Below, piece by piece: positions 29,196 through 44,249 of a DNA stretch of 64,000 nt. A model generated the notes under the pieces. The model did no database searches. It was not told the origin of the DNA and saw only the letters and a program-made list of their open reading frames with translations. The stretch is from Auanema rhodensis. Its lineage: Eukaryota; Animalia; Nematoda. Made by a program: the position numbers and the translations under genes. Where the stretch lies: positions 1 through 64,000 of the forward strand of contig OZ059894.1 in assembly GCA_964057225.1 (NCBI GenBank), read 5' to 3'. How positions within the stretch are numbered: position 1 is the stretch's first letter; every line of letters starts with the position of its first letter.

Positions 29196-29233
29196 ACGTG
29201 TACATTTAATTAGCATAAATTAAAGTTCACGTA
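29196..29233 (+). repeat. Left copy of the 37-38 bp target-site duplication of LINE A
   Basis: ACGTGTACATTTAATTAGCATAAATTAAAGTTCACGTA precedes the element and recurs at 33107-33144. The variant order across the insertion matches the empty paralogous site near 38035, favouring duplication over deletion. Confidence 0.8.
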
Positions 29234-29234
29234 T

Positions 29235-29771
29235 GAGGTCACGGCGCGGAATGAGGTCATTGAAACCATTAGGACGAACAAAACCAAATGTTTCGAAAGC
29301 TTGTCTAAGACCTTTATTCGCCGCGACTATCTTCCTTTTGAGGTAGATCTTGAAAAAAAACTTCGCGAAGAAGCAAAAGCCAAAAATTTGGATAATGGTG
29401 AATCATTTCTCATTGTACGCGATCTTAAACTTATAAAGATTCCACGTAAATCAACTGCCCGTCCAACCACTCCTACTCCACATGTTCTTCTTAATACTTC
29501 TACTGTTTTAAATTGCAATCTAAATGTTCAATGTCCGTCCAATGTTGATTCTGGTGTTATATCTAGCCCCCCTTCTAAATCTAGTAGGAATAGTCGCTCA
29601 ACTGGCAGGTCAAAATTTCTTTCTCTGGAGAAGAAATCTTCTATTAGCCCCAGAAGAAGAAAGAATCCACCACGTTCTGTTAAGCCTACTGTTGAACTTC
29701 CTACTAGATCAAAAAGCGGATCCGATACAACATCTCTATCTCGGTCCTGTAACAACATGTCCTTTCGTTAA
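29235..29771 (+). CDS. ORF1 (nucleic-acid-binding protein), C-terminal ~178 aa, 5'-truncated
   Basis: The frame is open from the junction (EVTARNEVIETIRTNKTKCFESLSKTFIRRDYLPFE...SPRRRKNPPRS...MSFR*) and is homologous to element B ORF1. The track's TTG start at 29301 is not a real start. Confidence 0.85.
   Translation, partial: EVTARNEVIETIRTNKTKCFESLSKTFIRRDYLPFEVDLEKKLREEAKAKNLDNGESFLIVRDLKLIKIPRKSTARPTTPTPHVLLNTSTVLNCNLNVQCPSNVDSGVISSPPSKSSRNSRSTGRSKFLSLEKKSSISPRRRKNPPRSVKPTVELPTRSKSGSDTTSLSRSCNNMSFR
29757..29771 (+). promoter_or_regulatory. Putative +1 programmed ribosomal frameshift site (AUG UCC_UUU_CGU_UAA), element A
   Basis: The 15-mer is identical in both elements, ORF2 lies in the +1 frame, and the motif matches the influenza PA-X UCC_UUU_CGU shift site. 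Confidence 0.7.
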
Positions 29772-32607
29772 AACCCCTTCTTCACCATGCTCGCTTTTTC
29801 CTCATGTCCCTGTCGAATTATCAGTCCACTGTTACAATGCACGTTCTATTCTCAATAAGCTTCATTTCCTCACAACCATTCACTCTATTTCATCCCCTGA
29901 TATTATCGCCATATCGGAATCTTGGCTGTTTTCTGATTTTTCTTCTGATCATCTTCCCTTAAATGATCATTACAACATATTCAGAGCAGACAAGCATTCT
30001 TCTCGCGGCGGTGGTACTCTTTTGTTTTTAAAAAAACAAATTAACTCAATCTTACTTTCCTCCTCACCTCTCTACTCCTCTGTTCAATATGTTACAATCC
30101 TTCTCACCTCTATCAACTCGGTTTTCTCCGTTTGTTACCGTTCCCCTTCTGCTTCTCACTCTGATTTCTGTTCCTATCTCTCGGATCTCAGTGGTCATAT
30201 ATCAAATCGCTCTTTTTTTGTTACAGGCGATTTGAACTTTCCTAATATCAATTGGGATCTTCTTCAGTCCTCACTCTCATCTCCTTCTAGTAAATCAATT
30301 ATTCAATTTCTTCAAAGTAGTCATTCTGACCAACTCGTTAATTTTCCTACACGTGGTAACAACATCTTAGACTACATTATCACAAACAATCCTTCAATCA
30401 TATCTAATATATCACGCTCCCCTCCATTGGGTAACTCCGATCACTTCTCGGTTACTTTCTCCATCATCATAAACATTCCTGTATCCCCTACGGATACCTT
30501 TCCTTTCTCTTCCAAAAGCCTCTCCAACAGTTCCTCACTATCTAACTTTTCTCAACTCAATTTCTATCGAGCCGACTTCAATGCTATTAATCGTCATCTT
30601 GTCAGCATCGACTTCTCATTGGTATTATCTGGTCTTTCCCCTCTTGACTCCTACTCCAAATTCATCAACATTCTCCAATCCATAATCTCTGTATTTGTTC
30701 CTCACAAACAACCTAGGCGTAGGAGCAAAGTTGACCGCAATATCGCAGATCTCTACTGTTACATCAAAAAACTTAGTTCATCCATCTGCCACCGTGACGA
30801 GCTCCTCCGCAAAAAACTAACTATAAAACTGGACAGACTTATTAAACAAAAGTCTATTTTGGAAGAAGAACAGATTGCTTCAACCAATAACTCCAAACGT
30901 TTTTATCGCTTCTGTAGAACTCGTCTCGGTGGATGCTCTTCAGATATCCCCACGATCAGATGTGGCGAAGAAGTATACTCCACAGACACAGACAAAGCTT
31001 CCATCTTTGCAGGCTCCTTCTCTGTTAAACCAAGTACTTCATCTGATTTAATCAACACCTCTTCTTGCCCTTCTTCTATCATTGATTTTATAGACATTTC
31101 TCCCGAAAAAGTCTATAAAGTTCTTTCTCATCTTCCTCTTAGAGTCTCTACTTCTTCTGACGGCATTCCCTACTACTTTCTCAATCAGTGCGCCTCTACT
31201 CTTTGCTACCCACTTGCCTTTATCTTTCACAATCTACTTGTTTCTTCTTCATGCCCTCCGGACTGGAAGAGAGCTTGGATCCGTCCTGTTTTCAAATCCG
31301 GAAATCGCTCTAATCCTTCAAATTATCGCCCTATCTCATTAACACCAAGTCTTTCTAAAGTTTTTGAACGACTCATCTCACCTCCACTTCTCCACTTTGG
31401 CATTTCAACTGGATCTATATCTGCCCACCAACACGCTTTTCGTCCTAAACGTAATACCATATCAGCAATCATTAACAATCATATTGCTTGGAGATCATGT
31501 TTAGATAAAAACATACCAGTCTATACTGCTTTCATAGACTTCTCTAAAGCTTTTGATCTAATTGATCACTCGGTTCTTTTTCACAAATTTAAAACTATTG
31601 GTATCTGCGGTTCTCTTCAAACCTTCCTTAAAAACTTCATCACTGGTAGATCTTACTCAGTTCTTGTCAATGGTTCTTTCTCCACTTCTGTTAACTTATC
31701 TTGTGGTGTTCCACAAGGCACTGTTTTGGGCCCTCTCCTATTCCTTTTCTACATTAATGACATTACGTCTTCTCTCCCTGAAGATGTTCATCCTACACTT
31801 TTTGCCGATGATCTCAAGTTATACAGTACTAATCCGGTAAGTCTACAGATTGCCTTAAACACAATCAACGCTTGGTGTAAAAATAATGGAATGATGGTCA
31901 ACACCACCAAATCCAAAATTATGATAGTTTGCAATAATAGCTCAACCCTCAATACCATTGAGCCATTTACCTTTGGTGAGTTTCCTTTGAACTTTGTGCT
32001 CCATTATAAAGATCTTGGTGTTCTAACTGATTACAATCTTACATTTGATAGTCACATAAACGCCATCAGTTGCGCCGCTGCCCTTAAATGTCGCATCCTT
32101 CTACGCTGCTTTCACTCTAGGTCACCTCCATTTATGTTTAACCTTTTTTGCAGCTACGTCCGACCAATCCTTGAATATGCATCCGTGATATGGTCTCCTC
32201 AAGTATCCAAAAAAATATCTCGTATTGAGATGGTTCAGAAAAAATTCCTACGAGCAGTCTTCTCAAGAGCAGGAATTTTTTCAGACTACAAAAGTCAGCT
32301 CACTTTTTTGAATGCTCAAGAACTATCAACCAGAAGACAGGTAACTGATCTAGGTTTTTATTTTTCTCAAATTAAAGACGTATCAACTGACAGTATTTTA
32401 AGAATTTTTCAAGCTAAACATTTCACACACTCTCTTCGCAGACACCAATGGAATATCGACTATCCTGATCTTCGGAAAGTTGCAACAAGGAATGGTATCG
32501 AGTACAGAGGCATCAAAACTTGGAACGATTTACCTGAAAACCTTGTCAACCTTACTAATGTTCATAATTTCAAGAAACATTTACTCTCTGCTCCAATAGA
32601 TTTGTAA
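29764..32607 (+). CDS. ORF2: APE endonuclease + reverse transcriptase, intact (~947 aa from the proposed shift site; frame open from 29524)
   Basis: APE motifs CYNARS, IAISESW, RGGG, YRSP, GDLN, PTR..ILD, SDH. RT motifs YRPISL, IDFSKAFD, GVPQGTVLGPLLF, FADD, YKDLGV. CR1/L2-like C-terminus (RPILEYAS.IWSP, WNDLPE). No RNase H or CCHC knuckle seen. Confidence 0.95.
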   Translation, partial: FVKTPSSPCSLFPHVPVELSVHCYNARSILNKLHFLTTIHSISSPDIIAISESWLFSDFSSDHLPLNDHYNIFRADKHSSRGGGTLLFLKKQINSILLSSSPLYSSVQYVTILLTSINSVFSVCYRSPSASHSDFCSYLSDLSGHISNRSFFVTGDLNFPNINWDLLQSSLSSPSSKSIIQFLQSSHSDQLVNFPTRGNNILDYIITNNPSIISNISRSPPLGNSDHFSVTFSIIINIPVSPTDTFPFSSKSLSNSSSLSNFSQLNFYRADFNAINRHLVSIDFSLVLSGLSPLDSYSKFINILQSIISVFVPHKQPRRRSKVDRNIADLYCYIKKLSSSICHRDELLRKKLTIKLDRLIKQKSILEEEQIASTNNSKRFYRFCRTRLGGCSSDIPTIRCGEEVYSTDTDKASIFAGSFSVKPSTSSDLINTSSCPSSIIDFIDISPEKVYKVLSHLPLRVSTSSDGIPYYFLNQCASTLCYPLAFIFHNLLVSSSCPPDWKRAWIRPVFKSGNRSNPSNYRPISLTPSLSKVFERLISPPLLHFGISTGSISAHQHAFRPKRNTISAIINNHIAWRSCLDKNIPVYTAFIDFSKAFDLIDHSVLFHKFKTIGICGSLQTFLKNFITGRSYSVLVNGSFSTSVNLSCGVPQGTVLGPLLFLFYINDITSSLPEDVHPTLFADDLKLYSTNPVSLQIALNTINAWCKNNGMMVNTTKSKIMIVCNNSSTLNTIEPFTFGEFPLNFVLHYKDLGVLTDYNLTFDSHINAISCAAALKCRILLRCFHSRSPPFMFNLFCSYVRPILEYASVIWSPQVSKKISRIEMVQKKFLRAVFSRAGIFSDYKSQLTFLNAQELSTRRQVTDLGFYFSQIKDVSTDSILRIFQAKHFTHSLRRHQWNIDYPDLRKVATRNGIEYRGIKTWNDLPENLVNLTNVHNFKKHLLSAPIDL

Positions 32608-32781
32608 ACCAAATACTGTAGATAATGTTCTCACCCCTCAAAAATCTTTTTTGTTTTCTATTTTATCAGGCTTTTTTTTATTTGTAGTTCGTTCTTTTTC
32701 ACACTTGTTTATGACCACATGGCAACAGTCCACCATTTATTTTTCTTTGTCCCTTCTGAACTCTTGTTACTTCGTCACTAT

Positions 32782-32911
32782 TCCTATAGACATTAGTCAT
32801 ACGGATCGGGCGCTAGTTACCTCCAAATTGCTAGAACGGGCTTGCCTCAGATCACGAGTACCACCGTACCTAACAACCACACTAGTGAGGTCAGCCATCG
32901 TGCTGAACAAA
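32782..32911 (+). ncRNA. Conserved structured cis-RNA element (hairpin + pseudoknotted domain + hairpin) in the 3' UTR of element A
   Basis: Aligns with 42710-42838 with compensatory base changes in three helices, while flanking UTR sequence is poorly conserved. Confidence 0.75.
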
Positions 32912-33069
32912 CCCCATGCATACAACAAGAATTTTACTTGGCGGACTGTTCACTATTGATCTTAAATAAGCGAGCTCTTATCGAACTGGCAATATTAAAA
33001 ATCCTTTTTCATGTTCTTATTGAATGGTTTTTAATTTTTTTCACTCAATTACTTAACAGCTATTTGTCT

Positions 33070-33108
33070 TAACCTGTGATATTGAACAATAAACATTAAA
33101 CATTAAAC
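33070..33108 (+). terminator. Conserved 3'-terminal motif TAACCTGTGAT..GAACAATAAAC with AATAAA and a (CATTAAA)2 tail
   Basis: AATAAA at 33088-33093. The motif is shared with the end of element B. Short tandem-repeat tails are typical of CR1/L2 LINEs. Confidence 0.75.
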
Positions 33109-36100
33109 GTGTACATTTAATTAGCATAAATTAAAGTTCACGTAAATTTCAAAGTCATGGTTACCATGCACCAATATCAATAAAAATTTGTTTTTAGACT
33201 AATATGGACATGGGGAATCTAATTTTGAAAACCGCATCTCTTTATCTTTCACGTGAAGCGAGTTACATACCAAGTGCACATCACGTGTACATTTAATTAG
33301 CATAAATTAAAGTTCACGTAAATTTCAAAGTCATGGTTACCATGCACCAATATCAATAAAAAGTTGTTTTTAGACTAATATGGACATGGGGAATCTAATT
33401 TTGAAAACCGCATCTCTTTATCTTTCACGTGAAGCGAGTTACATACCAAGTGCACATCACGTGTACATTTAATTAGCATAAATTAAAGTTCACGTAAATT
33501 TCAAAGTCATGGTTACCATGCACCAATATCAATAAAAATTTGTTTTTAGAATAATATGGACATGGGGAATCTAATTTTGAAAACCGCATCTCTTTATCTT
33601 TCACGTGAAGCGAGTTACATACCAAGTGCACATCACGTGTACATTTAATTAGCATAAATTAAAGTTCACGTAAATTTCAAAGTCATGGTTACCATAAACC
33701 AATATCAATAAAAATTTGTTTTTAGACTAATATGGACATGGGGAATCTAATTTTGAAAACCGCATCTCTTTATCTTTCACGTGAAGCGAGTTACATACCA
33801 AGTGCACATCACGTGTACATTTAATTAGCATAAATTAAAGTTCACGTAAATTTCAAAGTCATGGTTACCATGCACCAATATCAATAAAAATTTGTTTTTA
33901 GACTAATATGGACATGGGGAATCTAATTTTGAAAACCGCATCTCTTTATCTTTCACGTGAAGCGAGTTACATACCAAGTGCACATCACGTGTACATTTAA
34001 TTAGCATAAATTAAAGTTCACGTAAATTTCAAAGTCATGGTTACCATGAACCAATATCAATCAAAATTTGTTTTTAGACTAATATGGACATGGGGAATCT
34101 AATTTTGAAAACCGCATCTCTTTTTCTTTCACGTGAAGCGAGTTACATACCAAGTGCACATCACGTGTACATTTAATTAGCATGAATTAAAGTTCACGTA
34201 AATTTCAAAGTCATGGTTACCATGCACCAATATCAATAAAAATTTGTTTTTAGACTAATATGGACATGGGGAATCTAATTTTGAAAACCGCATCTCTTTA
34301 TCTTTCACGTGAAGCGAGTTACATACCAAGTGCACATCACGTGTACATTTAATTAGCATAAATTAAAGTTCACGTAAATTTCAAAGTCATGGTTACCATG
34401 CACCAATATCAATAAAAATTTGTTTTTAGACTAATATGGACATGGGGAATCTAATTTTGAAAACCGCATCTCTTTATCTTTCACGTGAAGCGAGTTACAT
34501 ACCAAGTGCACATCACGTGTACATTTAATTAGCATAAATTAAAGTTCACGTAAATTTCAAAGTCATGGTTACCATGAAGCAATATCAATAAAAATTTGTT
34601 TTTAGACTAATATGGACATGGGGAATCTAATTTTGAAAACCGCATCTCTTTATCTTTCACGTGAAGCGAGTTACATACCAAGTGCACATCACGTGTACAT
34701 TTAATTAGCATAAATTAAAGTTCACGTAAATTTCAAAGTCATGGTTACCATGAAGCAATATCAATAAAAATTTGTTTTTAGACTAATATGGACATGGGGA
34801 ATCTAATTTTGAAAACCGCATCTCTTTATCTTTCACGTGAAGCGAGTTACATACCAAGTGCACATCACGTGTACATTTAATTAGCATAAATTAAAGTTCA
34901 CGTAAATTTCAAAGTCATGGTTACCATGAACCAATATCAATCAAAATTTGTTTTTAGACTAATATGGACATGGGGAATCTAATTTTGAAAACCGCATCTC
35001 TTTTTCTTTCACGTGAAGCGAGTTACATACCAAGTGCACATCACGTGTACATTTAATTAGCATGAATTAAAGTTCACGTAAATTTCAAAGTCATGGTTAC
35101 CATGCACCAATATCAATAAAAATTTGTTTTTAGACTAATATGGACATGGGGAATCTAATTTTGAAAACCGCATCTCTTTATCTTTCACGTGAAGCGAGTT
35201 ACATACCAAGTGCACATCACGTGTACATTTAATTAGCATAAATTAAAGTTCACGTAAATTTCAAAGTCATGGTTACCATGCACCAATATTAATAAAAATT
35301 TGTTTTTAGACTAATATGGACATGGGGAATCTAATTTTGAAAACCGCATCTCTTTATCTTTCACGTGAAGCGAGTTACATACCAAGTGCACATCACGTGT
35401 ACATTTAATTAGCATAAATTAAAGTTCACGTAAATTTCAAAGTCATGGTTACCATGCACCAATATCAATAAAAATTTGTTTTTAGACTAATATGGACATG
35501 GGGAATCTAATTTTGAAAACCGCATCTCTTTATCTTTCACGTGAAGCGAGTTACATACCAAGTGCACATCACGTGTACATTTAATTAGCATAAATTAAAG
35601 TTCACGTAAATTTCAAAGTCATGGTTACCATGAACCAATATCAATCAAAATTTGTTTTTAGACTAATATGGACATGGGGAATCTAATTTTGAAAACCGCA
35701 TCTCTTTTTCTTTCACGTGAAGCGAGTTACATACCAAGTGCACATCACGTGTACATTTAATTAGCATGAATTAAAGTTCACGTAAATTTCAAAGTCATGG
35801 TTACCATGCACCAATATCAATAAAAATTTGTTTTTAGACTAATATGGACATGGGGAATCTAATTTTGAAAACCGCATCTCTTTATCTTTCACGTGAAGCG
35901 AGTTACATACCAAGTGCACATCACGTGTACATTTAATTAGCATAAATTAAAGTTCACGTAAATTTCAAAGTCATGGTTACCATGCACCAATATCAATAAA
36001 AATTTGTTTTTAGACTAATATGGACATGGGGAATCTAATTTTGAAAACCGCATCTCTTTATCTTTCACGTGAAGCGAGTTACATACCAAGTGCACATCAC

Positions 36101-38918: not shown

Positions 38919-39758
38919 AACACCACCCATAACTCACCTCTTCTTTCTTCTTCCAATGTTGCATGCCAAATCCAAAAAATTAGATCAGAGGAGACAAAGT
39001 ACGATTATCGTTGTAAGAGAGCCCTCTGGTTCCGTGTACCAGTCTCTTGCCCGGATTTACCTTCTGACCCTTCTTCTTTACTGAAACTGGTCATTGAGAA
39101 ATCCAACGACACTACTTTGTCAACTCTCCTTAACACTAACCAAATAACCATTACACGTTGCATCCTTAAATCTAAATCCCCAGGCCCACTCATTATTACT
39201 TGTCCATCGGTTGAATTGCGGGATAAGATCATAACATCTATCAAAGCAAATAAGACTAAATGTTTCGAATCTTTATCTAAAACTTTTGTACGTCGCGACT
39301 ATCTTCCTTTTGAAATTCAACTGGAAAACAACCTTCGCGAGGAAGCAAAAGAAAAAAACAAAAACAACACTAAGTCTGTCTTTTTGGTACGAGATCTTCG
39401 ACTTATTGAAGTTTCCCGCAATCCAGCCGATCCTCCAAACCCTCAAGTAGCTCCCACTTCTTCTTGTAATCAAACTCCTAAAATACCATCTATTCCAAAC
39501 GTTCCATTACCAACACTCCATTCTCAAACTCTCACATCCCCAACTCTTTTTTCTAGCCCCCCTTGTAAATCTGGTAGAATGAGCCGGTCGAAGGAAAGAC
39601 AGAACCGCACGTCAAAAGACAAGCGTTCTTCTGTTAGCCCAAGACGTCGCAAAAATCCACCACGATCTGCAAAATTAACCACAGATCAAATTACCAGATC
39701 TGTTAGCATGAACAATACATCTCAACGTCTCACGTCTGACAAAATGTCCTTTCGTTAA
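38919..39758 (+). CDS. ORF1, C-terminal 279 aa, 5'-truncated; RRM/CTD-like region plus Ser/Pro/Arg-rich basic tail
   Basis: Manual translation is open from the junction (NTTHNSPLL...RCKRALWFRVP...PGPLIITCPSVELRDKII...TFVRRDYLPFE...MSFR*). The spacing resembles the L1/CR1 ORF1 RRM-CTD signatures (PRPIIVKF, IFI..DL). Confidence 0.85.
   Translation, partial: NTTHNSPLLSSSNVACQIQKIRSEETKYDYRCKRALWFRVPVSCPDLPSDPSSLLKLVIEKSNDTTLSTLLNTNQITITRCILKSKSPGPLIITCPSVELRDKIITSIKANKTKCFESLSKTFVRRDYLPFEIQLENNLREEAKEKNKNNTKSVFLVRDLRLIEVSRNPADPPNPQVAPTSSCNQTPKIPSIPNVPLPTLHSQTLTSPTLFSSPPCKSGRMSRSKERQNRTSKDKRSSVSPRRRKNPPRSAKLTTDQITRSVSMNNTSQRLTSDKMSFR
39744..39758 (+). promoter_or_regulatory. Putative +1 programmed ribosomal frameshift site (AUG UCC_UUU_CGU_UAA), element B
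   Basis: The ORF2 frame is closed upstream by TGA at 39709-39711 and has no ATG until after the endonuclease domain (~40519). The motif is identical to element A. Confidence 0.72.
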
Positions 39759-42578
39759 CACTGTCACGTCTTCAACCCCCCCTGTCTCACATCCTACCAG
39801 CCTCTCAGTTCAGTGTTTTAATGCACGTTCTATTCTTAACAAACTTCATATACTATCCCACGTTATTTCTTTATCCACTCCTGATATAATTGCAATATCA
39901 GAATCATGGCTTTTTCCTGAGTTCGATACCCACCTACTCCCATGTAAAGATACTTACACTATTTTTAGAGCCGATAGGTGTCTCTCACGTGGTGGTGGTG
40001 TTGTCCTCTATATTAAAAGTCATATCAAACCTTTTCTTCTTTCCTGTTCTTCTCCTCAATCTTCTATACAATTCATTAACTTACTCATACCTTCACTTAA
40101 TGCTGTTTTCTCACTCTGTTATCGTCCTCCAACAGCTTCTCATTCAGATTTCATTTCGTTTCTTTCTGATCTACGTAAACAAATTTCCAAACGATCGTTC
40201 TTCCTAACGGGCGATCTAAATTTTCCTAAAATCAACTGGGACCTCGGTATTTGCTCTCAACCATGCTCCTCTAGTAGATCTATTCTTCAATTTCTCAACG
40301 ATAGCTGTTCTCATCAGTTGGTAAAGTTCCCTACCAGAGGCAAGAGCATTCTTGATTATGTTATCACTGATAACATATCCAGTGTAGGCAACATATCCCG
40401 TTCTTCCCCCCTCGGCTCCTCGGATCACCATTCTGTGGTTTTCCAAATTGTTTCAGACTCTTTTCAGTTAGCTAATACAATCAGCTCTTCTAATACTTTG
40501 TCTCCGGTAGCATTACCTATGTTTTCTGATCGCAATTTTCAAGCTGCTGACTACAATCTCATCAATCATAGAATAGCCAAAATTGATTTCGCTAATCATC
40601 TCTCCGGTCTCACTCCTTTAGATTCTTACTCTGAACTTGTTCACATTCTTCACTCGGTCATTGATAGCTGCGTTCCCAAAAAACAAGAAAGAAGAAAAAA
40701 GAAGATTGACCGAGATATTTTAAAACTCTCATCTCATATAAAAAAACTCAGTTGTTCTTATCATCATCATGATGAATCCCGTCGTAAAAAACTTTCACAT
40801 TCTCTTGATAAACTTATCAAGAATAGATTGGCTTCGGAAGAGGAACGTATTGCCAACTATAATAATTCAAAACTTCTTTACCGCTTTTGCAGAACCCGTT
40901 TGGGTGGCAGCACTTCAGATATCCCAAATCTCAAAATAGATAATGATTCTGTTTCGTCTGATTCTGACAAAGCTTCTATCTTTGCTACTACCTTCTCTGT
41001 TCGCCCCCTTCCTATCTTTCTACCACATGCTCCTCATTCCTCTTCTTCTACTATTATCGACTTTATTGATGTCTCCCCTCTCAACGTTCACAAAATTCTC
41101 TGTCAGTTACCTCTTCGGGTATCAACATCCCCAGACGGAATCCCTTATTTCTTCCTAAAAAATTGTGCTTCTACTCTCTCTCAGCCTCTGGCCTTTGTTT
41201 TCCACAATCTACTTGTTTCCTCCTCTTGTCCTCCTGACTGGAAAACAGCTTGTATTCGTCCCGTTCATAAATCAGGACTTTCTTCTAACCCGGCTAATTA
41301 TCGTCCTATTTCTCTCACATCCAGTCTGTCTAAAGTTTTTGAACGTCTTTTGCGTTCACCTCTTCTTGACTTTGGTATTTCCTCCGGCTTTATTTCTCCT
41401 AATCAGTTTGCTTTTCTTCCAAAACGCAATACTGTATCGGCAATTCTTAGTAGTCATGTTCTCTGGAGATCTGCTGTAGACAAGAAAAAACCTGTTTATG
41501 TTGCCTTTATTGACTTTTCTAAGGCTTTTGATCTCATAAACCATTCCGTTCTGTTAGCTAAATTAAAATCAATTGGCATTGACGGCTGTATTCTCACTTT
41601 TCTCAAAAACTTCATTACTAATAGATCTTTCTCTGTATTAGTTAATTACTCTCTATCCGTCACAAATTCTTTGCCCTGTGGAGTTCCTCAGGGGACAGTA
41701 CTGGGTCCTCTTCTTTTTTTATTTTATATAAATGATATTACATCAAATTTACCTGATGATGTACATCCAACTCTTTATGCAGACGATCTTAAACTAAGCA
41801 GCACAAATCCGGTAAGTTTACAACTAGCTTTGAATATTCTAAAAACTGGTGTCTATCTAACGGTATGAAAGTTAATACTTCCAAATCCAAAGTTATGATT
41901 ATATCGAGTACCACTACACCAAGAACAAACACAATTTTCAAATTTGGAGACATTTCTTTAGCTACAGTATCATCATATAAAGATCTAGGTGTGTGTACAG
42001 ACTATAATCTCTCTTTTAACAGTCATATAGACAGAATTTCTAACATTGCTGCTCACAAATGTCGTGTTATTTTGCGTTGTTTTTACTCAAGATCACCAAC
42101 TTTGATGTTCAAACTTTTTTGCTGCTATATCCGACCGATTTTAGAATATGCTTCAGTTGTATGGTCTCCTCAGAATAACAAAGATAAAGCGCGCATTGAG
42201 TCTGTCCAAAAAAAGTTTTTAAACGCTATTTTTAAGAGAGCCGAAATAGCTTTGGATTACAAGAACCAGCTATTGTTTCTTGGAGCCGAGGAGCTAACGT
42301 TTAGAAGACTACTAATTGATCTCGTTTTTTATCATAATCAGATTACTAAAAATGTTCCAGAAAACAACCTTAACTTTTTTACTACCAAGCACTATGCTCA
42401 TTCACTACGTAGACATCTATGGAATGTTGAATACCCTGATCTTTGGAAGAGCGAAACAAGAACTGGAATAGAATACAGAGCTATTCAAATCTGGAACACA
42501 CTCCCTGAAAACATCGTTCAACTAAGAAACACTTCCAGCTTCAGAAAACATCTTTCTATTAATCTTAACAATATTTAA
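39751..42578 (+). pseudogene. ORF2 (APE endonuclease + RT) of element B, broken by one 1-nt deletion at 41841-41845 (real lesion or homopolymer error)
   Basis: The frame is open 39712-41868 (CFNARSILNKL, IAISESW, RGGG, GDLN, SDH, YRPISL, YADD) and continues in the 41865-42578 frame. Adding one A restores LNILKNWCLSNGMKVN, colinear with element A LNTINAWCKNNGMMVN. Confidence 0.9.
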
Positions 42579-42709
42579 CCTTTCTCTGTTATTGTAACTT
42601 GAAATCTTGTTTATGTATATTCCTCTATTTACAAGCATTTAAGCCTCAAGCTATGTTAAAGTTAGACAGTTCCCTAGTTTACCTCTGAGACCTGTTACTA
42701 CGCATTTTA

Positions 42710-42838
42710 TCCTATAGACATTAGTCATACGGATAGAACGATAGTTACCTCTTGCTGTCAGAACGGGCTTGACTCACATCAAGAGTTCCACCGTACCTGT
42801 CAGAATACTATAGAGGTCAGTGATCTACACTGAACAAA
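42710..42838 (+). ncRNA. Conserved structured cis-RNA element in the 3' UTR of element B
   Basis: Homologous to 32782-32911. The first 24 nt are identical (TCCTATAGACATTAGTCATACGGA) and the stems covary. Confidence 0.75.
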
Positions 42839-43040
42839 TCAACTCTTCTTTATCAAACTAGAACTGATTCGAAACCTTAACAAACAAGTAGTGCTGCTCA
42901 CTATCATTGTAAAAGAAAATATGCTGAACCTGTCTCTTGTACATATATTTTTTTAGTCAATTATTACAAGTATGTTTGTATTGTAAGGTTCTTTTGAATA
43001 TCTGCAATTTTCCCGATTTATTAACTTTGTTTTCCGATTA

Positions 43041-43074
43041 TAACCTGTGATTCGAACAATAAACCCGTTCAAAC
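43041..43074 (+). terminator. Conserved 3'-terminal motif with AATAAA, element B
   Basis: TAACCTGTGATTCGAACAATAAAC, with AATAAA at 43058-43063. Confidence 0.72.
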
Positions 43075-44249
43075 GTGTACATTTAATTAGCATGAATTAA
43101 AGTTCACGTAAATTTCAAAGTCATGGTTACCATGCACCAATATCAATAAAAATTTGTTTTTAGACTAATATGGACATGGGGAATCTAATTTTGAAAACCG
43201 CATCTCTTTATCTTTCACGTGAAGCGAGTTACATACCAAGTGCACATCACGTGTACATTTAATTAGCATAAATTAAAGTTCACGTAAATTTCAAAGTCAT
43301 GGTTACCATGCACCAATATCAATAAAAATTTGTTTTTAGACTAATATGGACATGGGGAATCTAATTTTGAAAACCGCATCTCTTTATCTTTCACGTGAAG
43401 CGAGTTACATACCAAGTGCACATCACGTGTACATTTAATTAGCATAAATCAAAGTTCACGTAAATTTCAAAGTCATGGTTACCATGCACCAATATCAATA
43501 AAAAGTTGTTTTTAGACTAATATGGACATGGGGAATCTAATTTTGAAAACCGCATCTCTTTATCTTTCACGTGAAGCGAGTTACATACCAAGTGCACATC
43601 ACGTGTACATTTAATTAGCATAAATTAAAGTTCACGTAAATTTCAAAGTCATGGTTACCATGTACCAATATCAATACAAATTTGTTTTTAGACTAATATG
43701 GACATGGGGAATCTAATTTTGAAAACCGCATCTCTTTATCTTTCACGTGAAGCGAGTTACATACCAAGTGCACATCACGTGTACATTTAATTAGCATAAA
43801 TTAAAGTTCACGTAAATTTCAAAGTCATGGTTACCATGCACCAATATCAATAAAAATTTGTTTTTAGACTAATATGGACATGGGGAATCTAATTTTGAAA
43901 ACCGCATCTCTTTATCTTTCACGTGAAGCGAGTTACATACCAAGTGCACATCACGTGTACATTTAATTAGCATAAATTAAAGTTCACGTAAATTTCAAAG
44001 TCATGGTTACCATGCACCAATATCAATAAAAATTTGTTTTTAGACTAATATGGACATGGGGAATCTAATTTTGAAAACCGCATCTCTTTATCTTTCACGT
44101 GAAGCGAGTTACATACCAAGTGCACATCACGTGTACATTTAATTAGCATAAATTAAAGTTCACGTAAATTTCAAAGTCATGGTTACCATGAAGCAATATC
44201 AATAAAAATTCGTTTTTAGACTAATATGGACATGGGGAATCTAATTTTG

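What the first reader, a model, noticed from the sequence alone, without database searches (positions are those of the whole stretch)
29757..29771. LINE ORF2 apparently reached by an influenza PA-X-type +1 ribosomal frameshift (UCC_UUU_CGU_UAA)
Seen: two diverged elements share an identical ATGTCCTTTCGTTAA (29757-29771 and 39744-39758), while sequence a few nt either side diverges. It reads MSFR* in ORF1, and ORF2 is in the +1 frame in both (CPFV). In B the ORF2 frame is closed by TGA at 39709 and has no AUG until past the whole endonuclease. In A there is no AUG from this site until ~31891, after the RT catalytic FADD. Established: UCC_UUU_CGU is the +1 shift site of influenza A PA-X, and UUU_CGN is the proposed +1 site of amalgaviruses (P-site tRNA-Phe re-pairs UUU to UUC). 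Characterised LINEs use termination-reinitiation (L1, SART1 UAAUG). Inference: this family makes an ORF1-EN-RT fusion with junction ...MSF-VK/VN..., analogous to Gag-Pol, with the adjacent UAA perhaps adding a pause. An alternative is internal initiation at the conserved AUG (AACATG/AAAATG) followed by the shift. I do not know of this motif being described in a LINE, but could not search the literature.
Basis: partly seen in the sequence, partly recalled or inferred. Interest (0 to 1): 0.92.

Follow-up and report, generated by a model that had tools for sequence, protein, structure and literature searches.

The report
Flu-type +1 frameshift in nematode LINE
Two roundworm jumping genes (LINEs) end their first gene on the same letters at which ribosomes slip one base in influenza PA-X, and their second gene sits one base over with no shared start codon, so they likely make their copying enzyme as a rare fusion protein by that slip.

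Summary
Confirmed: two 5'-truncated CR1-like LINEs in a 176-bp satellite (ORF2 63% identical in protein) end ORF1 on the identical ATG TCC TTT CGT TAA. ORF2 is in the +1 frame; B has no AUG before the end of its endonuclease, and A's two upstream AUGs are not shared. Alone the 15-nt match is moderate evidence (p 0.02-0.08 unanchored). New support: the three closest ORF1 relatives (Auanema sp. JU1783, about 31% identical) end SFRK, SFR and TFRK, against 0 of 27 more distant ones; Met is not kept. Two sister subfamilies in public contigs show no listed change in the motif, and linker indels are 3 nt. Best reading (0.66, inferred, no translation data): +1 slip at UUU_C gives a low-level ORF1-endonuclease-RT fusion. 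The scan noted -1 slips in other LINEs earlier, none of this +1 type. Frameshifting in LINEs is in print (TRE5-A, -1); this motif was not found in my searches.

The parts
29234..33109 (+). LINE element A, 5'-truncated inside ORF1, inserted in a 176-bp satellite
   Evidence: non-satellite segment; period 176; junctions
29235..29771 (+). A: ORF1 remnant, ends ...NNMSFR*
   Evidence: 56% identical to B ORF1
29760..29768 (+). A: predicted +1 shift site TCC TTT CGT (ORF1 codons); the C at 29766 would be skipped
   Evidence: only in-frame TCC_TTT_C in A's ORFs; junction reading MSF-VKTP
29767..29835 (+). A: linker in the ORF2 frame between the shift site and the endonuclease Asn; 29767-29824 is also the candidate 58-nt intron of the splicing rival
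   Evidence: no stop in 22 aligned codons, differences 10/6/13 by codon position
29767..32607 (+). A: ORF2 from the shift site, 946 aa, APE-type endonuclease plus reverse transcriptase, uninterrupted
   Evidence: Pfam PF03372/PF14529/PF00078
29524..29544 (+). A: two upstream in-frame ATGs of the ORF2 frame (29524, 29542), not shared with B
   Evidence: the ORF2 frame here carries stops in B and varies with ORF1 codon periodicity
32608..33109 (+). A: 3' UTR with a conserved block (about 32782-32895) and a short terminal tandem repeat
38919..43075 (+). LINE element B, 5'-truncated inside ORF1, same satellite, same 3' insertion point
38919..39758 (+). B: ORF1 remnant, ends ...DKMSFR*
   Evidence: homologous to Auanema sp. 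JU1783 proteins
39747..39755 (+). B: predicted +1 shift site TCC TTT CGT; the C at 39753 would be skipped
   Evidence: junction reading MSF-VNTV
39709..39711 (+). B: TGA that closes the ORF2 frame 42 nt before the slip (a second stop lies at about 39676)
   Evidence: neither stop is listed as changed in subfamily B'
39754..42578 (+). B: ORF2 from the shift site; first ATG at 40519; broken by a 1-nt gap near 41847, after the RT catalytic motif
42579..43075 (+). B: 3' UTR with the conserved block (about 42710-42825)

Best explanation
These two nematode CR1-like LINEs end ORF1 on UCC_UUU_CGU with an AUG-less ORF2 in the +1 frame, and likely make ORF2 by a programmed +1 ribosomal slip there, which would give a rare ORF1-endonuclease-RT fusion protein. 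Shown: motif, frames, lack of a shared AUG, open linker, F-R at the ORF1 end of relatives. Inferred from PA-X: tRNA-Phe in the P site moves from UUU to UUC while the A site waits at CGU, and translation resumes at GUU (junction MSF-VK in A, MSF-VN in B). Most ribosomes would stop one codon later and release ORF1p. An efficiency near 1%, as measured for PA-X and PLEKHM2, would set a high ORF1p:ORF2p ratio. The stop codon and downstream RNA structure are probably not needed.
For: Identical motif in two families whose flanks are 48% identical, +1 geometry, B closed upstream with no AUG before 40519. Codons are exactly the PA-X ones although TCC is 58 of 317 Ser codons and CGT 35 of 117 Arg codons in these ORFs. 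3 of the 3 closest ORF1 relatives end SFRK, SFR, TFRK; 0 of the other 27 hits end in FR or FRx; FR occurs at 9 of 3480 tail positions. Indels of up to 12 aa lie just before the F-R, which stays within one residue of the stop. Subfamily B' (about 11% diverged) has no listed change from 39733 to 39760 and a 3-nt insertion in the linker; A' has none listed from 29737 to 29775. The linker is open in the ORF2 frame, with a 3-nt indel between A and B and Leu kept through different codons. Upstream of the motif variation follows the ORF1 frame, not ORF2. PA-X: shift site and direction fixed by mass spectrometry, UUC_AGA mutant abolishes it, 0.7-1.3% efficiency (PMC3498833); no stimulator evident (PMC5009743). 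Distant CR1-like elements often lack an ORF2 AUG and 6 of 22 carry a -1 heptamer within 13 nt of the ORF1 stop, so fusion by recoding fits this group.
Against: No ribosome, peptide or reporter data. The DNA of the three Auanema relatives was not seen, so their codons (TTT or TTC, CGN or AGR) and the frame of any ORF2 are untested; they are 40-47% identical to each other and so not three independent events; their ends rest on gene models. F-R-K-stop could equally be the read-through of a C|GTAAGT splice donor, or a protein-level C-terminal motif. The 15-nt run alone is not strongly significant, and the invariance in B' has p 0.04-0.17; the A' invariance is partly built in, because the contig starts on a shared 31-mer. 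0 of 22 distant ORF1 ends carry in-frame UUU_CGN, and L001 (same ORF1 family) is in the -1 frame. A has two upstream in-frame AUGs.
Confidence: 0.66

Rival explanations
1. A short intron does the job: splicing from the GT inside CGT to the AG just before the endonuclease removes the ORF1 stop and fuses ORF1 to ORF2 in frame (junction MSF-LHCYN in A). The conserved letters would mark a 5' splice site.
For: GT..AG pairs of 58 nt (29767-29824) and 55 nt (39754-39808) at homologous places give an in-frame fusion; this is a usual nematode intron size (recalled). F-R-K-stop in two relatives can be encoded by C|GTAAGT, which fits the GURAGU donor consensus (PMC4889670).
Against: The acceptors read TTATCAG and CTCTCAG and lack the -5 U, the most conserved base of the C. 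elegans UUUUCAG/R site (PMC4889670, abstract and introduction). The donors GTTAAA and GTTAAC are weak and the segments are only 55% and 45% A+T. The segment stays open in the ORF2 frame with 3-nt indels only, and keeps the Leu of the endonuclease's first strand by codon change. A LINE protein tends to copy the RNA that made it (recalled), so the intron should be lost from new copies; both copies keep it, and no such joint is listed in the DNA contigs laid (contigs drop rare variants). Splicing does not explain the conserved upstream S/T-F.
Confidence: 0.12
2. Ribosomes stop at the ORF1 UAA and restart ORF2 nearby without an AUG, as mammalian L1 can; ORF2p is a separate protein, and S/T-F-R is kept because ORF1p needs that C-terminus.
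For: L1 ORF2 tolerates any sense codon in place of its AUG (as cited in PMC1965478, passages). The stop always lies 0-1 codon after F-R. L001 has an AUG-less ORF2 whose CTG overlaps the ORF1 TGA.
Against: It does not predict the exact PA-X codons or identical synonymous sites in A and B. No stop-start AUG, no UGGGA within 120 nt upstream, and no stable fold downstream (z +0.7, +1.6, -0.7, +0.1), whereas SART1 needs a downstream structure (PMC10275272). No near-cognate start is shared between A and B in the linker.
Confidence: 0.13
3. Internal initiation: either at the motif's own AUG followed by the slip, or, in A, at the upstream in-frame AUGs (29524, 29542).
For: The AUG is shared by A and B with a purine at -3; A's ORF2 frame is open from 29524.
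Against: None of the three relatives has Met before S/T-F-R. B and B' have stops in the upstream ORF2 frame, and that stretch varies with ORF1 codon periodicity.
Confidence: 0.04

Closest known systems
Influenza A PA-X +1 shift site UCC_UUU_CGU, with related sites in amalgaviruses (UUU_CGN) and human PLEKHM2 (UCC_UUU_CGG)
   Same: Same zero-frame codons and +1 direction. In amalgaviruses the proposed product is also an ORF1-polymerase fusion (PMC3498833, parts 1-2 of 4; PMC5052127 and PMC11451614, passages).
   Different: Here the site is in a non-LTR retrotransposon and lies 0-1 codon before the zero-frame stop; the viral sites lie near the 5' end of long overlaps. Untested experimentally here.
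Dictyostelium TRE5-A and TRE3-A (APE-type non-LTR elements)
   Same: LINE whose ORF2 is stated to be reached by a frameshift (PMC5911963, figure legend).
   Different: -1 direction, L1 clade, another signal.
SART1 and mammalian L1 (termination-reinitiation)
   Same: Bicistronic LINE RNA with low ORF2 output.
   Different: SART1 has an overlapping UAAUG and a downstream structure (PMC3708506, PMC10275272, passages); here there is no stop-start AUG and a fusion is predicted.
Ty1 and Ty3 Gag-Pol +1 frameshift
   Same: +1 shift joins a structural ORF to the RT ORF in a retrotransposon (PMC5911963, passages).
   Different: LTR elements of yeast, other shift sites, and a protease that cuts the fusion; none is encoded here.
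Nematode T1/CR1 LINEs (Sam and Frodo names recalled; C. elegans LINE2/CR1 in PMC11662393, passages)
   Same: ORF2 best named hits are Caenorhabditis RT proteins; ORF1 belongs to a family with mostly nematode-like hits.
   Different: More distant ORF1 relatives do not end in F-R (0 of 27); how their ORF2 is made was not found in print in my searches.

Membership tests
UUU_CGN / UCC_UUU_CGU +1 frameshift sites (PA-X class) | UUU_C in the zero frame, allowing tRNA-Phe to re-pair on UUC | tested here: met
   TTT at 29763 and 39750 in the ORF1 frame
UUU_CGN / UCC_UUU_CGU +1 frameshift sites (PA-X class) | A-site CGN and E-site UCC codons | tested here: met
   TCC TTT CGT in A and B; no listed change in A' or B'
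UUU_CGN / UCC_UUU_CGU +1 frameshift sites (PA-X class) | Long +1 ORF open from the site and lacking its own usable AUG | tested here: met
   B: closed at 39709, first ATG 40519; A: upstream ATGs not shared
UUU_CGN / UCC_UUU_CGU +1 frameshift sites (PA-X class) | Nucleotide-level conservation of the site across divergent lineages | tested here: inconclusive
   DNA for four variants of two families only; the Auanema relatives were seen as protein only; no close relative in the metagenome or viral contigs
UUU_CGN / UCC_UUU_CGU +1 frameshift sites (PA-X class) | Transframe product or reporter signal that depends on UUU_C | not testable with these tools
   needs reporter, ribosome profiling or mass spectrometry
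CR1-clade APE-type non-LTR retrotransposon | ORF2 with APE endonuclease followed by RT, ORF1 upstream | tested here: met
   Pfam; ORF map
CR1-clade APE-type non-LTR retrotransposon | 3' end in short tandem repeats and not poly(A) (feature recalled) | tested here: inconclusive
   A ends in about 2.5 copies of a 7-nt unit; B has no clear repeat; neither has poly(A)
CR1-clade APE-type non-LTR retrotransposon | RT groups with reference CR1 elements | tested here: inconclusive
   The tree (39 rows, two gene models left out for lack of columns) holds no named CR1 reference; A and B fall in an unstarred set with two Caenorhabditis RTs and unnamed elements
Termination-reinitiation LINEs (SART1 type) | ORF2 AUG overlapping or close to the ORF1 stop | tested here: not met
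   the only nearby AUG is in the ORF1 frame
Termination-reinitiation LINEs (SART1 type) | Stable RNA structure downstream of the stop | tested here: not met
   60- and 90-nt folds no better than shuffles
Short nematode intron | GT..AG that restores the frame | tested here: met
   58 nt in A, 55 nt in B
Short nematode intron | UUUUCAG/R acceptor with U at -5 | tested here: not met
   A has A and B has C at -5 (consensus from PMC4889670)
Short nematode intron | Spliced RNA reads | not testable with these tools
   no raw RNA reads were available for this element

The most novel reading that the evidence does not exclude
A nematode LINE lineage has arrived at the influenza PA-X recoding signal and makes its endonuclease-RT only as an ORF1 fusion at about 1% of ORF1p. 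It is the +1 member of a wider pattern in which the CR1-group ORF1/ORF2 junction swaps between -1 heptamers, +1 UUU_C sites, in-frame stops and stop-start overlaps, so ORF1-ORF2 fusion, not reinitiation, may be a common way for these LINEs to make RT.
Probability: 0.5. Interest if true: 0.76.

Novelty: new variant of a known kind. Interest (0 to 1): 0.62.

Why it matters
How LINEs translate ORF2 is settled for very few elements, and the usual model is reinitiation that gives a separate ORF2p. A Gag-Pol-like fusion would tie the RT to the ORF1p particle and fix their ratio. It would also add a selfish element and a third of the animal kingdom's model systems (nematodes) to the short list of hosts for the UUU_CG +1 signal, whose mechanism is still unclear (role of the A- and E-site codons, PMC3498833). 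The site is 9 nt long and can be tested directly in a worm reporter. It also explains why gene callers miss these ORF2s.

Tried and rejected
No host genome is held for this window, so the family could not be collected in full. A word-based search with B ORF1 found nothing among 560 candidates; the profile search with the five-member alignment returned only the same three Auanema proteins among 7991 candidates. Viral contigs gave no relatives in four scans. Metagenome contigs gave none for the close clade and two near-identical loci for the wider ORF1 family. A DNA-pattern scan of the metagenome collection was not run, so motif-bearing relatives there remain unsampled. No RNA holder listed; three runs guessed to be RNA laid 0 contigs, which says nothing on expression or splicing. 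Rfam gave 3 weak matches, all far below gathering scores. Long-range pairing between the junction and the 3' UTR: the longest perfect complement was 8 nt in A and 7 nt in B, at non-homologous places, so rejected. A downstream stimulatory hairpin was rejected. A -2 slip was rejected by reasoning: UUU would have to re-pair on CCU. Trans-splicing onto the AG before the endonuclease was rejected: no AUG follows before 40519 or 31891. The ESM Atlas gave only unnamed eukaryotic clusters for P0122. None of P0001-P0120 is a close ORF2 relative (26-36% identity); many have a Met just before the endonuclease. The SART1 primary paper is not held.

Full report
What is there. The window is a 176-bp satellite with two non-satellite inserts, A (29234-33109) and B (38919-43075). 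Each is a LINE cut off inside ORF1, with an ORF2 that holds an APE-type endonuclease and a reverse transcriptase. A's ORF2 is uninterrupted; B's has a 1-nt gap near 41847. A and B are 56% identical in ORF1 and 63% in ORF2. The closest named ORF1 relatives are three proteins of Auanema sp. JU1783 at 31-32% identity and the best named ORF2 hits are Caenorhabditis proteins, so the host is probably a rhabditid nematode (inference). The CR1 label rests on these hits and on recall; my tree held no named CR1 reference.

ATGTCCTTTCGTTAA ends ORF1 in both elements, and ORF2 is in the +1 frame. In B the ORF2 frame is closed by TGA at 39709, and its first ATG (40519) lies past the endonuclease. These are not shared: over 29524-29757 the A/B differences fall on ORF1 third positions (24/25/41 by codon position), and three of 74 aligned ORF2-frame codons are stops. 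After the motif the pattern fits the ORF2 frame: 22 aligned codons, no stop, differences 10/6/13. So coding passes from frame 0 to frame +1 at about the motif.

How strong is the match by itself? Moderate. Flanks are 48% identical, but five other exact runs of 15 nt or more exist between A and B. Shuffles give p 0.016 (columns, tail plus linker) and 0.08 (codons, tail) for such a run anywhere, and about 5e-4 for five identical codons anchored at the stop, an anchor chosen after the fact. The codons used are the PA-X ones: TCC is 58 of 317 Ser codons, TTT 73 of 116 Phe codons and CGT 35 of 117 Arg codons in these ORFs, and TCC_TTT_C occurs in frame only here.

Relatives. A full HMMER search with B ORF1 gave 30 hits. 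The three are 40-47% identical, so I count them as little more than one event, but indels of up to 12 residues sit just before the F-R while it stays within one residue of the stop. None has Met before it, which removes the idea of a start at the motif's AUG, and two have a Lys before the stop, so the stop need not be adjacent. These are gene-model proteins (the assembly was annotated with BRAKER2; PMC9984802, passages). I could not see their DNA: codons and ORF2 frame are untested. In public contigs of coded runs (X1, X4, X6, which show the same contigs and count as one source), a subfamily about 11% diverged from B has changes at 39732 and 39761 but none listed between them, keeps both upstream stops, and has a net 3-nt insertion in the linker (40 of 41 rows shown). 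A subfamily about 7% from A has none listed from 29737 to 29775 (40 of 381 rows shown, and the contig starts on a shared word, so this is weak). The chance of no change is 0.04 over 28 nt and 0.17 over the 15-nt motif.

Mechanism. For PA-X, mass spectrometry fixed the site and the +1 direction; the favoured model is P-site tRNA-Phe moving from UUU to UUC with an empty A site; UUC_AGA abolishes the shift, changing UCC lowers it by 40-70%, and efficiency is 0.7-1.3% (PMC3498833, parts 1-2 of 4 read). No stimulator is evident there (PMC5009743, passages), which matches the lack of any fold here. The same class is proposed for amalgavirus ORF1+2 fusions (PMC5052127, passages) and shown for human PLEKHM2 at about 1% (PMC11451614, passages). 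Applied here, the junctions read MSF-VKTP in A and MSF-VNTV in B (in one search the code also slips at a second TTTC downstream, an artefact of applying it everywhere), then about 20 linker residues, then the endonuclease. All of this step is inference.

The GT of CGT and an AG just before the endonuclease define 58-nt (A) and 55-nt (B) segments whose removal also fuses ORF1 to ORF2 in frame, and F-R-K-stop in two relatives could be a read-through of C|GTAAGT. Against it: both acceptors lack the -5 U, the most conserved base of the C. elegans acceptor (PMC4889670, abstract and introduction); the segment is C-rich, stays open in the ORF2 frame with 3-nt indels only, and keeps a Leu through TTA versus CTC; and both inserted copies retain it, with no such joint listed in DNA contigs. 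I give it 0.12. AUG-independent reinitiation as in L1 (cited in PMC1965478, passages), with F-R kept for a protein reason, gets 0.13.

Wider context, for and against. Of 82 fetched loci (2 metagenome; the best 80 of 269 eukaryotic contaminants of prokaryote assemblies), 39 had a recognisable endonuclease start and I examined 22 ORF1 ends. None has in-frame UUU_CGN in its last 40 codons. L001, whose ORF1 is in the same family (E 1e-30), has an AUG-less ORF2 in the -1 frame and no motif. So the motif is a feature of the close clade only. But 6 of 22 (L036, L052, L059, L064, L070, L079; about four families) have an in-frame -1 heptamer within 13 nt of the ORF1 stop, and four related loci (L012, L021, L030, L053) have ORF2 in +1, three of them with an in-frame TTT_C in the overlap; L021 ends CCC TTT CAG TAA, the same spacing as here. 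L012 lacks it, L021 and L053 have a Met before the endonuclease, and L038 is +1 with no such site, so this is a lead only.

What is in print. TRE5-A and TRE3-A are stated to need a -1 frameshift (PMC5911963, figure legend); SART1 uses UAAUG reinitiation (PMC3708506 and PMC10275272, passages); the 2016 review names no frameshift for LINE ORF2 in the passages shown. My searches listed no paper that places this motif in a LINE; for the motif itself 40 of 62 papers were listed and judged by title only. A 2026 CR1 survey has no occurrence of 'frameshift' in its main text (PMC13343379, term search only; supplements not read). The library lacks most subscription papers: I recall, unchecked, that R1Bm ORFs overlap in the +1 frame, and I could not read Marin et al. 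1998 on C. elegans elements, so an older +1 proposal without this motif may exist. ASXL1 (PMC5644247) was seen as a listing only; PMC5443660, PMC11662393 and bioRxiv 10.64898/2026.08.27.747507 as passages (the preprint's supplements are closed). Earlier notes of this scan describe -1 slips in CR1 and other LINEs of other genomes, unchecked by me on their DNA; none describes this +1 site, and no look-alike stretch was on record.

Verdict. A real, conserved junction signal. It works like the PA-X class with probability about two in three; membership awaits nucleotide data from relatives and a translation test. New variant of a known kind; interest 0.62.

Noticed in passing
window 33107-33115 and 43073-43081; 29196-29233: Both elements have their 3' end at the same base of the 176-bp satellite unit (next to a CACGTG palindrome), and contigs of other copies run into the same satellite letters. 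A has a target duplication of about 36-38 bp, B only a 4-nt overlap. The family may target this satellite.
   Followed up: partly
window 32782-32895 and 42710-42825: A block of about 115 nt in the 3' UTR is far more conserved than its flanks (a 25-nt exact run), folds with three compensated pairs in a two-sequence alignment and is shared by further families in the contigs. No Rfam match. It may be the RT recognition signal or an undescribed structured RNA.
   Followed up: partly
L036:4950-4975, L052:3630-3660, L059, L064:4900-4930, L070:475-495, L079:4920-4940: Invertebrate CR1-like elements with in-frame -1 heptamers (U_UUA_AAC or U_UUU_UUA) just before the ORF1 stop; L036, L052, L059, L064 and L079 have no Met before the endonuclease; L052 and L064 have a G-run 9-10 nt after the stop.
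   Followed up: partly
L025:1700-1712, L005:616-620, L041:2651-2655, L067:945-950: ORF1 and ORF2 are in the same frame, split by one stop, with no in-frame Met before the endonuclease. L025 reads TGA CAA TTG, like a known read-through context (recalled).
   Followed up: no
L021:2530-2545, L030:1060-1085, L053:695-706, L012:270-323: A group of related elements from mollusc-symbiont assemblies has ORF2 in +1; three of four have an in-frame TTT_C in the overlap. Possibly a second, independent +1 lineage.
   Followed up: partly
L001:1268-1278: Same ORF1 family, AUG-less ORF2 in the -1 frame, with a CTG overlapping the ORF1 TGA (an AUGA-like stop-start with a CUG).
   Followed up: no
window 29652-29681 and 39642-39671: A basic SPRRRKNPPRS motif is kept in the otherwise variable ORF1 tail; PRS is invariant in all five clade members, 18-28 residues before the F-R. 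It could be a nuclear signal, a phosphorylation site or a nascent-peptide element.
   Followed up: no
P0128, P0133, P0140, P0148: Four distant gene models run from ORF1 straight into the endonuclease. They may be true single-ORF elements or joins made by gene callers; no DNA was seen.
   Followed up: no
L003-L082: 269 matches to a eukaryotic LINE RT lie in prokaryote genome assemblies, which points to host DNA in those bins.
   Followed up: no
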